64,000 nt of DNA from assembly GCA_037443545.1 (NCBI GenBank), contig JBBIOD010000005.1:15210-79209 (forward strand), given 5' to 3'. Each line of letters begins with the position of its first letter. Position 1 is the stretch's first letter. The position numbers were made by a program. Below, in pieces: positions 33,001 to 36,000 of this stretch. The stretch comes from Ignavibacteriales bacterium. GTDB lineage: Bacteria > Bacteroidota > Ignavibacteria > UBA10030 > BY39.

Positions 33001-36000
33001 AACCGCAACCTTCGCCGGTTTAGTGAACCGCTTGACATCGTTGATTGCAGGGACTGGAGCGACTTTAGTTTTCTACTACATTTTTGGAGGTAAATTCCCG
33101 AAAAATTCCGATTGGATTTCGTTAGGTTTTATACTCATTGCAGTGGTTTTCTTAACTATCGCCGAAAAGAGACGGACTGCTGAATTGAAAGCTGAGCATG
33201 TGATATAATAAAAAACCGCTAAGGCTTAATGTCTTAGCGGTTTATATTTGTGAAGATAATCCTTTTTATTTGTTCTTAATATTCCACAACTTCGAAGTAA
33301 CTCGTTCTAACTCGGCTCCAATTAATTTTGAATCGAGAGTTTTTTCGGGTTCATTCTGAAACACTGCATAAGGCACTTTTATCCCCTTTACTTCAATAAA
33401 GTCGGGGTCCTTTGCTTCTAACTTATCCCAATCGTTCACCTTGTAATAAAATTCCATTTTTTCGTCGGGTAACGAATGGTGCAAAATAGAGTGTTCAAGT
33501 CCCTTCCGTGCTCTGCGTTGGTTCTTACGAACTGATTCCTCGTAAGAAACCTTAATATAAACTAAGACAGCATTCTTCAAAATATTTTCATCTAAGTAGC
33601 TTAATGCTTCGTAGATACCGTTTTCACCACCGCGGGCAAATTCTATCAATGTAGTCATTTTGTCGTGATAATTCGCATCGCGAGCTAATTTTTTCTGGTA
33701 TTCCAAGTTAATCCGCTCAATAAACAAATTCCAAATAAAGTGTTCCTTGAACCAATATTTTTCATCAGTCCACACTCTAGGCTTCGCATGTTTTGTCAAA
33801 ATATCATCAACCTCAAAAGTTTCCCATACATAAACAAAATCATCTAATTCTTCAAAGTTAGCAATATGTAAACGGTCCAATCGTTCATTCGCGTCGATGT
33901 GTTTCAGATAATCTATTACTTCCGATTTACCTGCAGCGGGTCTTCCAATAATTATCACAATTGAAAAATTATTTTTTTTCATAATTAAATTTTGCCTTTC
34001 CTCAATGTATTTATATTTTTATTTAATTTCTTCAATTCTATTTTCATTTTGGGAATCAATTTCTTTCGTTTGGAGCACTACTTTCCGAACTTCATCAAAA
34101 ACAGTCATGTTTAACTGAATTGCATTGTTAATTTCAATTCCGAGATAGCGTTTTGCTTCTCCTATAAAGTAATCACTGGCAGCAGCACTGTATATTCTAT
34201 CATCTTCTATAGGCTTTCCTTGAATATCTAATTTTAGTATTTCGATATCGCCCTCTTTTTTTGTCCATTGGCATTTGATGCCCGAAAATTGGATGGGCGA
34301 TTTTTCTTTGATGTAAAATTTCACTATCGATTTTATTTGCTGTCCACTCAATTGGAAAGTTGTTAAAATATTATAAAAGGGAAGCACCTCGAATAAATCT
34401 TTTTTAGTTATCTTCCCTGCCGGTAAATCTCTTCGAATTCCGTGATTATTCATAAATGCAATATCAGTTTTTGCTGCAATCCGCTGTGCATCTGTAATGA
34501 AATTCCCGATGCCGCTTTCGCCGCTGCCCCGCTTCCAGTCCGATTTTAATATTCCGATTACTTCGTTGTAATCTTTTTCTATCACAGTTTGCATCGAATC
34601 GATCAACATTGTAAGAAGATTGCTGGGTCTACCTGGCCGAAACCAGAGTGGGATCAACTGGCCGTTGAAATTCGTTACTTTGTCGTTTTCTATAAATACT
34701 TCCAGCTCGCCCAAATTTTCTCCATTACCGCCGGCTTGAGCAATTATTACATTGTTGACTACCTTGGGTTTGGTTAGGCGTGTATGTGAATGCCCACCGA
34801 TAATTACATCTAATCCAGAAACATTCGCAGCCAAAACTGAATCGTCGAAAACACCTTGGTGGGTTAAGGCAATAATCAAATCTGTTTTCGGATCGATTTG
34901 GTTTATATATTTTTGTAAAGTCTCAATCGGCGAAAGAACACGAATACCAACCAGATTGTTTTGATTGACTAATCCATATAAGTCTTGTGACATAATTCCG
35001 ATAATCCCGATTTTAATACCGGCTTTATCAACAATGATATAAGGTAAATTATTCAGGTGATTCTTTCCCTCGTTATTTACCAGGTTTGCCGATACTGTGG
35101 GGAATTTTGCAATTTTAGTTAACTTTACAAAATTGTCCTGTGAAATATCGAAATCGTGATTACCGGGGCACCAAACTTCGTACCCTATTATGTTCATCAT
35201 TTCGAAAAGAGCACCCCCTAATGCACCCTTGTACTGATATTCAGTGATCGGATTTCCGGTCATCACATCGCCGGCATCTAACAGCAAAACATTTTTTTCT
35301 CTTTTGATACTGTCGGTAACGCAATAGATCTCGTTGAAACCACCGATTTGTGGTTTTGGTTTGTCTCGTACCCAGGTGGCTTCGCGTGGAAGAAAGTTTG
35401 AGTGAATATCGTTTGTATGAAGAATTGTTAAAGCTTTTGGCTGCGAACAGGAGGAATAGAAAAATGTAGCCATCGATAACGATAGCATAAATAAATAAAT
35501 TTTGGCTTTATTCATCTTATTAACAAGTATTTTTAAATATAGAAAAACCAATCATTGTTACAGATTGGCTTTCACGAATTAGTCATTTACAGTAGATATA
35601 TATTAACGAACCTTCTTCTTATGTCGGTTCTTCCTCAAACGTTTTTTTCGTTTGTGAGTCGACATTTTATGACGTTTTCTTTTTTTACCACAAGGCATGT
35701 ATTATTCCTTTAAATTATAGTGTTAATTAATTAAATGTTGTTGTAAAATTTGTTTAGCTTTTTGAGCGACCGAAGATGTGGAATCGAGTGCTATACATCT
35801 GTTGAACCAAAAAGCGGCTTTCTCAGAATTTCCATTTTGCCAGTTCACGATACCCAAATTATAATGTCCCAAAACATGATTGGGAGAATATTTTAGAGCT
35901 TCTTGCATAGTGCTTATCGCTGTATCGAAATATTCTTTCTGTTTTAACGTATCCTCAAACGCCATCTGATAATAGCTTACACCGAGATCGATGCGTGCAT

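What the first reader, a model, noticed from the sequence alone, without database searches (positions are those of the whole stretch)
35603..35698. Unannotated 31-aa ultra-basic ORF, a bS22/mS38 (AURKAIP1)-like ribosome-associated peptide
The ORF encodes MPCGKKRKRHKMSTHKRKKRLRKNRHKKKVR and occupies an otherwise empty 170-bp gap. It falls below the ORF-track size cutoff. Its composition is about 65% K/R/H. The M-P-x-G-K-K-R-K-R-H-K-M-x-T-H-K-R-K-K-R-L-R-K-N-R-H-K pattern matches the tiny conserved FCB-group proteins that are usually labelled AURKAIP1/COX24-domain proteins. Those are related to mycobacterial bS22 and mitochondrial mS38. Such genes are often missed by gene callers. Its presence also supports the FCB lineage assignment for this window.
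Basis: partly seen in the sequence, partly recalled or inferred. Interest (0 to 1): 0.5.

Follow-up and report, generated by a model that had tools for sequence, protein, structure and literature searches.

The report
Small ribosomal protein bS22 gene
The 31-codon reading frame is a real, strongly conserved gene for bS22, a tiny, very basic protein already seen by cryo-EM inside the small ribosomal subunit of related bacteria, so it is an ordinary housekeeping gene that standard family models fail to name.

Summary
Confirmed and explained. Window 35603-35698 (minus strand) encodes MPCGKKRKRHKMSTHKRKKRLRKNRHKKKVR (31 aa, 68% K/R/H). Over its first 28-29 residues it is 79-90% identical to three chains built into cryo-EM ribosome maps: bS22 of Flavobacterium johnsoniae (7JIL), Porphyromonas gingivalis (9I5V) and Borrelia burgdorferi (8FMW). 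E-values are 3e-7 to 2.5e-9, and scores lie 13-15 sd above composition-matched shuffles.

At least 119 genomes carry the gene, mostly Ignavibacteria, Kapaibacteria, Chlorobiota and Bacteroidia. In the 17 codons not fixed by my search pattern, synonymous sites are saturated (pS 0.99) while pN is 0.065. The gene has an AAGGA ribosome-binding site and a hairpin with a U tract after the stop. It lies in a conserved HU-TPR-bS22 arrangement (HU upstream in 85 of 94 testable loci).

- Pfam PF08213 (AURKAIP1/COX24) and NCBIfam NF047430 (bS22) do not recognise this peptide or the solved FCB-type chains. Similarity to mycobacterial bS22 is not above compositional expectation, so that link rests on published structures.
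- The motif is not exclusive to the FCB group (Fibrobacterota-Chlorobiota-Bacteroidota).
- The 5'-nucleotidase neighbour is not conserved, whereas the TPR neighbour is.

Already known; low interest.

The parts
35603..35698 (-). bS22 coding sequence: 31 codons plus a TAA stop, encoding MPCGKKRKRHKMSTHKRKKRLRKNRHKKKVR
   Evidence: sequence. (PDB bS22 chains 7jil_5, 9i5v_10, 8fmw_V). (z = 13-15 over shuffles). (pN/pS 0.066 in codons 13-29 across 117 genomes). (AF2: extended 1-13, helix 14-30, pLDDT 88).
35706..35710 (-). Shine-Dalgarno-like AAGGA, 7 nt upstream of the ATG
   Evidence: Read directly. All six metagenome loci that encode the identical peptide have GGAG or AAGGAG at the same place. 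66 of 123 loci have an SD core there, in the Ignavibacteria, Kapaibacteria, Chlorobiota and Omnitrophota types among the 25 loci inspected by label, but not in the typical Bacteroidia examples. 35% of long ORFs in the window have an SD core, against 9% of random positions.
35543..35573 (-). Hairpin (core GCCAAUC / GAUUGGU, 9-nt loop) running into a U5 tract, starting 30 nt after the stop codon; candidate intrinsic terminator or attenuator
   Evidence: MFE -12 kcal/mol, z = -2.68, and 0 of 200 shuffles fold as well. The consensus scan missed it because its loop limit is 8 nt. Function is inferred.
35723..36316 (-). Upstream neighbour: a TPR protein (197 aa) with a hydrophobic N-terminal stretch and a His-rich stretch; its stop is 24 nt before the bS22 ATG
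   Evidence: TPR families; a gene lies between HU and bS22 in 68 of 85 loci; 7 of 7 such proteins tested are TPR proteins.
36329..36646 (-). HU/IHF-family DNA-binding protein gene, 12 nt upstream of the TPR gene; first member of the conserved HU-TPR-bS22 arrangement
   Evidence: PF00216, 106 bits. HU lies upstream on the same strand in 85 of 94 genome loci that have enough upstream sequence.

Best explanation
The ORF is the gene for ribosomal protein bS22 of the type found in Bacteroidota (including Ignavibacteria and Chlorobia) and spirochaetes. It is probably transcribed with the upstream genes on the same strand: the gaps are SppA-26-HU-12-TPR-24-bS22. It is translated from its own AAGGA ribosome-binding site. 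The product is a roughly 3.9-kDa polycation with an extended N-terminal segment and one alpha-helix. By homology with the solved F. johnsoniae, P. gingivalis and Borrelia ribosomes, it inserts into the RNA pocket between 16S rRNA helices h44 and h45 at the subunit interface, next to the decoding centre. Its lysine-rich C-terminus reaches 23S rRNA (H68/H70), adding an intersubunit bridge like the one formed by eukaryotic eL41. The charge-neutralising Lys, Arg and His side chains stabilise the local rRNA backbone. In M. smegmatis this fine-tunes the aminoglycoside pocket. Shown here: the ORF exists, it is homologous to structurally proven bS22, it is under strong purifying selection, it has translation signals, and its synteny is conserved. 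Inferred: ribosome binding in this organism, co-transcription, and any effect on h44 or antibiotics.
For: Over its first 28-29 residues the peptide is 90%, 83% and 79% identical to 9i5v_10, 7jil_5 and 8fmw_V, with E = 2.5e-9 to 3e-7. A family profile gives E = 2e-14 to 4e-13. Scores are 13-15 sd above composition-preserving shuffles. Six independent metagenome contigs encode the identical peptide with 19-22 of 93 coding bases changed, while the adjacent TPR proteins are only 35-43% identical. At least 119 species-level genomes carry the gene. In codons 13-29, which my search pattern did not constrain, pS = 0.99 and pN = 0.065 over 117 loci. Eleven of those 17 columns are invariant among the loci that reach them, and two more are at least 98% conserved. 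An exhaustive HMMER scan finds 304 cluster representatives at 50% identity. An SD-like site and a terminator-like hairpin flank the gene. AF2 predicts a single helix at residues 14-30 with pLDDT 88, which fits the published description of bS22 as one alpha-helix followed by lysines (PMC13000457). The position and contacts of the homologues come from PMC7797042, PMC10618245 and PMC12123416. The genetic and structural effect on h44 comes from PMC10081302.
Against: There is no experimental evidence for this organism or for any member of Ignavibacteria: no paper in the searchable library mentions bS22 together with Ignavibacteria. The window holds no 16S or 23S rRNA, so conservation of the binding pocket could not be checked. 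Pfam and NCBIfam give no hit, although controls show this holds for the whole solved FCB-type subfamily. No sigma-70-like promoter was found on the minus strand in 35300-36900. Co-transcription with the upstream genes therefore rests on short intergenic gaps alone. The hairpin ends only 28 nt before the 5'-nucleotidase start, so it may attenuate transcription and not fully terminate it.
Confidence: 0.93

Rival explanations
1. The peptide is real and conserved but acts partly or mainly off the ribosome in this lineage. It could be a nucleoid-associated polycation working with the HU protein encoded upstream, or it could be functionally coupled to the membrane-anchored TPR protein.
For: HU lies upstream on the same strand in 85 of 94 loci, usually with a TPR gene between. 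Isolated F. johnsoniae 30S subunits lack bS22 density, so binding is reversible (PMC13000457). Deleting bS22 in M. smegmatis causes no growth or translation defect (PMC10081302).
Against: Homologues 79-90% identical are modelled with side-chain density inside 70S ribosomes of three species. Synteny can reflect shared high expression and need not mean shared function. Chlorobiaceae and Omnitrophota-labelled loci keep the peptide without HU or TPR.
Confidence: 0.04
2. The ORF is a chance open frame in an AT-rich, purine-skewed spacer and is not translated.
For: Short ORFs are abundant in this window: 61 of at least 20 aa in 4.5 kb. No hit in Pfam or NCBIfam.
Against: The amino-acid sequence is conserved over saturated synonymous divergence in at least 119 genomes. 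The frame is open in all of them, and the stop falls at codon 29-36 in 118 of 119. An SD motif is present. Highly significant matches to cryo-EM-built chains exist.
Confidence: 0.01
3. The functional gene is the 52-aa ORF on the opposite strand (35555..35713, +), and the basic peptide is its antisense shadow.
For: That ORF fully overlaps the region and is longer.
Against: The corresponding antisense frame is interrupted by stops in 39 of 119 genomes, and the other two antisense frames in 50 and 74. Antisense frames tend to stay open simply because a K/R-rich sense strand gives a pyrimidine-rich antisense strand that is poor in stop codons. Substitutions follow the codon phase of the minus-strand frame.
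Confidence: 0.01
4. The ORF is a leader or regulatory peptide whose translation controls the downstream gene through the hairpin.
For: A hairpin with a U tract lies between the ORF and the 5'-nucleotidase start, with only 28 nt between the hairpin and that ATG.
Against: The downstream partner is not conserved: RNase E/G in 42 of 88 loci, tRNA-Thr in 18 of 113, tRNA-Lys plus tRNA-Leu in 7, and 5'-nucleotidase in none. A leader peptide would not keep its amino-acid sequence across phyla.
Confidence: 0.01

Closest known systems
bS22 of Flavobacterium johnsoniae (Fjoh_1533; PDB 7JIL chain 5) and of Porphyromonas gingivalis (PDB 9I5V; GenBank AAQ66340.1)
   Same: Same length class (30 vs 31 aa) and the same motif, MPxGKKRKRHK(M/V)(A/S)THKRKKR.R.NRHKKK. 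Identity is 83% and 90%. The phylum-level group is the same in GTDB terms. The homologues sit between h44 and h45 and touch 23S H70 (PMC7797042, PMC12123416).
   Different: Position 3 is Cys here (Ser or Asn in the two solved proteins). The C-terminus is KKKVR, not KKKK. The gene has a Shine-Dalgarno site, whereas the typical Bacteroidia loci inspected lack one. The host is Ignavibacteria-like, a class with no ribosome structure.
bS22 of Borrelia burgdorferi (bb0822; PDB 8FMW chain V)
   Same: 79% identical, including the MPCG start. It was also missing from the genome annotation and was found only through cryo-EM density. It is among the essential-gene candidates with no transposon insertions (PMC10618245).
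   Different: Different phylum (Spirochaetota), 28 aa long, and it uses a GUG start codon (PMC10618245). Its genomic context was not examined here.
Actinobacterial bS22 (M. smegmatis MSMEG_1916, PDB 5O5J/5O61; NCBIfam NF047430; Pfam PF08213) and mitochondrial mS38/AURKAIP1/Cox24, eukaryotic eL41
   Same: They occupy the same rRNA pocket and have similar size and charge, according to published superpositions (PMC7797042, PMC10618245, PMC12123416). An ungapped alignment places M1, K6, R9, M12, S13, K16, K19, L21, R22 and R25 in register. This includes Lys16, the h44 contact in M. smegmatis (PMC10081302). That alignment is my inference.
   Different: No sequence relationship could be demonstrated. 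PF08213 and NF047430 give no hit. The FCB profile does not retrieve actinobacterial or mS38 chains at E<=10, and the reverse search also fails. Pairwise and profile scores are only 0.9-1.9 sd above composition-matched nulls. Common descent versus convergence stays open; the P. gingivalis authors themselves raise convergence.

Membership tests
FCB/spirochaete-type ribosomal protein bS22 (as in PDB 7JIL chain 5, 9I5V chain 10, 8FMW chain V) | Stand-alone ORF of about 28-35 codons encoding a K/R/H-rich peptide | tested here: met
   31 aa, 68% K/R/H. Family lengths are 28-35 aa in 118 of 119 genomes.
FCB/spirochaete-type ribosomal protein bS22 (as in PDB 7JIL chain 5, 9I5V chain 10, 8FMW chain V) | Significant full-length sequence similarity to chains built into ribosome cryo-EM maps, beyond what composition explains | tested here: met
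   phmmer E = 2.5e-9 to 3e-7 over residues 1-29. Profile E = 2e-14 to 4e-13. z = 14.9 and 13.2 against 5000 shuffles.
FCB/spirochaete-type ribosomal protein bS22 (as in PDB 7JIL chain 5, 9I5V chain 10, 8FMW chain V) | Invariant core residues M1 P2 G4 K6 R7 K8 K11 H15 K16 R17 K18 K19 R25 H26 K27 K28 | tested here: met
   All are present in the window peptide (alignment A1; column counts).
FCB/spirochaete-type ribosomal protein bS22 (as in PDB 7JIL chain 5, 9I5V chain 10, 8FMW chain V) | Conserved as a protein-coding gene across related genomes (purifying selection) | tested here: met
   pS 0.99 against pN 0.065 in the unconstrained codons 13-29 of 117 genome loci. Identical peptide with 19-22 base changes on 6 contigs.
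FCB/spirochaete-type ribosomal protein bS22 (as in PDB 7JIL chain 5, 9I5V chain 10, 8FMW chain V) | Short extended N-terminus followed by a single alpha-helix | tested here: met
   AF2 single-sequence model: helix 14-30, mean pLDDT 88. This is weak evidence, because the real fold forms only on rRNA.
FCB/spirochaete-type ribosomal protein bS22 (as in PDB 7JIL chain 5, 9I5V chain 10, 8FMW chain V) | Physically bound between 16S h44 and h45 of the 30S subunit in 70S ribosomes | not testable with these tools
   Needs cryo-EM or mass spectrometry of ribosomes from this lineage. The window has no rRNA gene.
Pfam PF08213 COX24_C (AURKAIP1/COX24/DUF1713; mS38 C-terminus and actinobacterial bS22) | Score at or above the gathering cutoff (23 bits) of the family HMM | tested here: not met
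   No hit at E<=10. Controls: P. gingivalis-type chain 11.7 bits, F. johnsoniae and Borrelia chains no hit, M. smegmatis bS22 46.2 bits.
Pfam PF08213 COX24_C (AURKAIP1/COX24/DUF1713; mS38 C-terminus and actinobacterial bS22) | Sequence similarity to family members beyond shared K/R composition | tested here: inconclusive
   Smith-Waterman z = 1.9 (p = 0.05) against M. smegmatis and 1.3 (p = 0.11) against C. acnes. hhalign z = 0.9 against column shuffles. M. smegmatis bS22 does find this ORF as its best six-frame hit in the window, at E = 0.004 without composition correction.
NCBIfam NF047430 ribo_bS22 (equivalog) | Score at or above the curated cutoff (34 bits) | tested here: not met
   No hit at E<=10. 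Controls: the three solved FCB/spirochaete-type chains give no hit, and M. smegmatis bS22 gives 62.6 bits. The model covers only the actinobacterial type.

The most novel reading that the evidence does not exclude
HU-TPR-bS22 may be a functional module and not merely a conserved gene order. In that case the tiny polycation, a membrane-anchored TPR protein (His-rich here, with zinc-ribbon motifs at the N-terminus in Calditrichia and Kapaibacteria relatives) and the nucleoid protein HU would be co-regulated, and bS22 would have a second, reversible role off the ribosome. A related open possibility is that FCB-type bS22 arose independently of actinobacterial bS22, mS38 and eL41 and converged on the same h44/h45 pocket. 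My composition-controlled tests found no sequence signal linking the two types.
Probability: 0.1. Interest if true: 0.45.

Novelty: already known. Interest (0 to 1): 0.15.

Why it matters
Scientifically this changes little. bS22 of this sequence type was identified in the F. johnsoniae ribosome in 2020 and reported as conserved across Bacteroidetes. It was later seen in P. gingivalis and Borrelia. The practical value is for annotation. The window gene should be named 30S ribosomal protein bS22. The controls show that neither Pfam PF08213 nor the NCBIfam bS22 equivalog NF047430 recognises this subfamily, not even the chains with solved structures. Such genes will therefore keep being left unnamed, labelled hypothetical, or mis-extended. 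A dedicated model built from the motif MPxGKKRKRHKxxTHKRKKxxRxNRHKK would fix this. The data also extend the documented range of this bS22 type to Ignavibacteria, Kapaibacteria, Chlorobiota, Calditrichia and possibly Omnitrophota.

Tried and rejected
I used the exhaustive representative search, exact-protein contig look-up and a degenerate DNA pattern for residues 1-12 instead.
- The listing of cluster members reported the exact peptide as absent, although look-up of encoding contigs found it on six contigs. I treated this as a tool inconsistency.
- Pfam and NCBIfam scans of the peptide gave nothing. Positive controls showed this is a limit of the models and not evidence against homology.
- The FCB-type profile against the PDB did not reach actinobacterial bS22, mS38 or eL41. 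The reverse search with M. smegmatis bS22 did not reach FCB-type chains. hhalign and shuffle tests were not significant. I therefore do not claim sequence homology with PF08213.
- The promoter scan found nothing on the minus strand, and its total count was not above shuffles. The terminator scan missed the hairpin because of its 9-nt loop, so I folded the region directly.
- The zero non-synonymous changes in L001-L006 follow partly from how those loci were found, by exact protein identity. I repeated the selection test on codons that the DNA pattern did not constrain.
- The Nei-Gojobori path averaging inflates pN for CGN/AGR arginine switches, so 0.066 is an upper bound on pN/pS.
- Rejected readings: chance ORF, antisense 52-aa ORF, leader peptide (see rival explanations).
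- I did not run a fold search on the AF2 model, because a single 17-residue helix would match anything.
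Full report
**1. The observation**

Window 35603..35698 holds, on the minus strand, an ATG-to-TAA frame of 31 codons encoding MPCGKKRKRHKMSTHKRKKRLRKNRHKKKVR. K+R+H make up 21 of 31 residues, or 68%.

The ORF sits between a TPR-protein gene (35723..36316, minus) and a 5'-nucleotidase gene. Its likely true start is ATG 35515, which opens a lipoprotein-like signal peptide.

A 31-codon ORF means nothing by itself here, since one search lists 61 ORFs of at least 20 aa within 4.5 kb. 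The case has to rest on sequence and conservation.

**2. What it matches**

phmmer against all PDB chains returns exactly three sequences, each aligned end to end:
- 9I5V chain 10, 'AURKAIP1/COX24 domain-containing protein', E = 2.5e-9. This 30-aa chain fits the bS22 modelled in the P. gingivalis 70S ribosome (PMC12123416).
- 7JIL chain 5, F. johnsoniae bS22, E = 1e-8.
- 8FMW chain V, Borrelia burgdorferi bS22, E = 3e-7.

Identities to the window peptide are 90%, 83% and 79%. A 12-sequence family profile raises these matches to E = 2e-14 to 4e-13.

Such peptides are compositionally extreme, so I compared Smith-Waterman scores with 5000 residue shuffles of each target. The scores were 14.9 and 13.2 sd above the null for the F. 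johnsoniae and Borrelia chains, and no shuffle reached the observed value. The gene is single-copy in the window.

**3. Conservation**

The exact peptide is encoded on six metagenome contigs from several independent samples (L001-L006). Their coding DNA differs from the window at 19-22 of 93 positions, while the TPR proteins next door are only 35-43% identical. Those loci were found by exact protein identity, so the absence of amino-acid changes follows partly from how they were selected.

For an unbiased test I scanned 185,579 species genomes with a degenerate back-translation of residues 1-12. I then analysed only codons 13-29, which the pattern does not constrain. Over 117 loci, synonymous sites are saturated (pS = 0.99) while pN = 0.065. 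Eleven of the 17 columns are invariant among the loci that reach them, and two more are at least 98% conserved. The frame is open in every genome and ends after 28-35 codons in 118 of 119.

The 52-aa ORF on the opposite strand (35555..35713) is not conserved. Its frame contains stops in 39 of 119 genomes. Antisense frames tend to stay open only because a purine-rich sense strand leaves few stop codons opposite.

An exhaustive HMMER scan of 1.84 billion cluster representatives finds 304 at E <= 1e-3. Many are over-long gene calls that carry the peptide at one end.

**4. Signals and context**

An AAGGA lies 7 nt upstream of the ATG (35706-35710, minus strand). All six identical-peptide loci have GGAG or AAGGAG at that place. 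Overall, 66 of 123 loci have an SD core there. Among the 25 loci inspected by label, these are the Ignavibacteria, Kapaibacteria, Chlorobiota and Omnitrophota types, and not the typical Bacteroidia ones. That fits the known lack of SD use in Bacteroidia (PMC7797042). In the window, 35% of long ORFs have an SD core, against 9% of random positions.

Thirty nucleotides after the stop codon, a hairpin followed by U5 (35543-35573) folds at -12 kcal/mol, with z = -2.7.

On the same strand the gaps are SppA-26 nt-HU-12 nt-TPR-24 nt-bS22, which suggests co-transcription. This is inferred, since no minus-strand promoter was detected nearby.

**5. Synteny**

Of the 94 genome loci with at least 1.5 kb of upstream sequence, 85 have an HU/IHF-family gene upstream on the same strand. 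It is directly adjacent in 17, and one gene lies between in 68. All seven intervening proteins that I tested, from Flavobacteriales, Cytophagales, Calditrichia, Kapaibacteria and a Chlorobiota-labelled MAG, are TPR proteins. Most have a hydrophobic stretch near the N-terminus.

The 5'-nucleotidase is not syntenic in any locus.

The downstream gene varies:
- RNase E/G-like gene in 42 of 88 loci.
- tRNA-Thr(CGU) in 18 of 113 loci.
- tRNA-Lys(UUU) plus tRNA-Leu(GAG) in 7 loci.

**6. Lineage**

The flanking proteins match best in Ignavibacteria-type MAGs. HU reaches 83% identity in L022, a 'Bacteroidota bacterium' MAG, and 67-72% in others. SppA reaches 52% in L016, an Ignavibacteria MAG. The SppA-HU-TPR-bS22 order recurs in L091, L033 and L102. 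The window (37.8% G+C) is therefore Ignavibacteria-like but not close to any representative genome.

The peptide motif alone does not diagnose an FCB origin. Borrelia has it. So do two Omnitrophota-labelled MAGs with a different neighbourhood, a HisG-like gene upstream, and a diverged tail.

Eight loci labelled Hyphomicrobiales, Chloroflexota, Syntrophomonadaceae, Chromatiales or Armatimonadota carry an Ignavibacteria-like HU gene upstream of bS22, three of them with a recognisable TPR gene in between. These look like labelling or binning errors.

**7. Mechanism**

From the literature on homologues:
[quoted passage not shown] It inserts between h44 and h45 beneath the platform and contacts 23S H70 (PMC7797042; PMC13000457).
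- In Borrelia the pocket is formed by h2, h27, h44 and h45, with a contact to H68. The gene was unannotated and is among the essential-gene candidates with no transposon insertions (PMC10618245).
- In P. gingivalis bS22 is described as an extra intersubunit bridge, resembling the eukaryotic eB14 bridge, next to the aminoglycoside site (PMC12123416).
- It is absent from isolated F. johnsoniae 30S subunits but present in 70S complexes, so binding is reversible and may depend on the 50S subunit or IF3.
- In M. smegmatis, deleting the actinobacterial bS22 causes no growth or global translation defect. It does make cells 2-fold more sensitive to aminoglycosides, and Lys16 forms a salt bridge to the h44 backbone (PMC10081302).

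The AF2 model of the window peptide shows residues 1-13 extended and a helix at 14-30, with pLDDT 88, which agrees with these descriptions.

I infer that the window protein binds the same pocket, neutralises backbone charge around h44 and h45, and bridges to the 50S subunit.

**8. Membership and the deeper relationship**

Controls explain why:
- M. smegmatis bS22 scores 46.2 bits.
- The P. gingivalis-type chain scores 11.7 bits, against a 23-bit cutoff.
- The F. johnsoniae and Borrelia chains score nothing.

NCBIfam's bS22 equivalog NF047430 behaves the same way: 62.6 bits for M. smegmatis and nothing for the FCB or spirochaete type.

The two types do not find each other in PDB searches in either direction. 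Alignment scores between them are only 0.9-1.9 sd above composition-matched nulls. An ungapped alignment does put M1, M12, S13, K16, L21, R22 and R25 in register, and M. smegmatis bS22 finds this ORF as its best six-frame hit in the window (E = 0.004 without composition correction). Both results are suggestive but not significant.

I therefore file the gene as an FCB/spirochaete-type bS22. It works like actinobacterial bS22, mS38 and eL41, but membership of PF08213 is not shown.

**9. Verdict**

The gene is an orthologue of an already described ribosomal protein, so novelty and interest are low. The useful outputs are the gene's name, the demonstration that curated HMM libraries miss this subfamily, and the conserved HU-TPR-bS22 arrangement as a minor lead.

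Noticed in passing
window 35603-36646 (minus strand); loci L007-L125: The gene order HU/IHF - TPR protein - bS22 is conserved across Bacteroidia, Ignavibacteria, Kapaibacteria and Calditrichia. HU is upstream in 85 of 94 testable loci, and 7 of 7 intervening proteins tested are TPR proteins. Chlorobiaceae (Rho-like gene upstream) and Omnitrophota-labelled MAGs (HisG-like gene upstream) are exceptions. None of the papers I read mentions this arrangement.
   Followed up: partly
L001 5106-5179, L002 2238-2311, L004 960-1033 and 15+ other loci; L026 2361-2549, L029 3347-3536: In many Ignavibacteria and Melioribacteraceae loci a tRNA-Thr(CGU) gene follows bS22 directly on the same strand (18 of 113 loci). 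In Chlorobiaceae a tRNA-Lys(UUU) plus tRNA-Leu(GAG) pair follows it (7 loci). The window has neither; its only tRNA is a tRNA-Met at 7072-7146.
   Followed up: partly
Pfam PF08213 and NCBIfam NF047430 (controls): Neither curated model recognises the FCB/spirochaete-type bS22, not even the three chains with solved structures. Both recognise only the actinobacterial type.
   Followed up: yes
L021, L025, L093, L060, L088, L091, L106, L080: MAG contigs labelled Hyphomicrobiales, Chloroflexota, Syntrophomonadaceae, Chromatiales, Armatimonadota or Alphaproteobacteria carry the FCB-type peptide. All but L080 (which has no upstream sequence) have an Ignavibacteria-like HU gene (55-72% identical to the window's) in the same arrangement. 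Taxonomic labelling or binning errors are likely.
   Followed up: partly
window 35723-36316 (minus strand), residues ~28-46 of the TPR protein; L103 and L042 homologues: The TPR protein has a His-rich stretch (HEHEGHVHNEDEQHSHD) just after its hydrophobic N-terminal stretch. The Calditrichia homologue also has a His-rich stretch and carries N-terminal zinc-ribbon motifs. The Kapaibacterium homologue shows weaker zinc-ribbon matches. Metal binding is possible but was not tested.
   Followed up: no
one search hit list (P0001-P0150): Most 50%-identity cluster representatives containing the peptide are 40-150 aa long and carry it at the extreme N- or C-terminus. This suggests frequent mis-called starts or read-through calls for this tiny gene in public assemblies.
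   Followed up: no
window 33266-33982 (minus strand): A 238-aa ORF with a P-loop-like motif (GRPAAGKSE) gives no Pfam family hit at E<=1e-3.
   Followed up: no
window 35516-35573 (minus strand): The hairpin and U tract after bS22 end only 28 nt before the 5'-nucleotidase ATG. That leaves little room for a separate promoter, so the downstream gene may depend on read-through or on a promoter that overlaps bS22.
   Followed up: no
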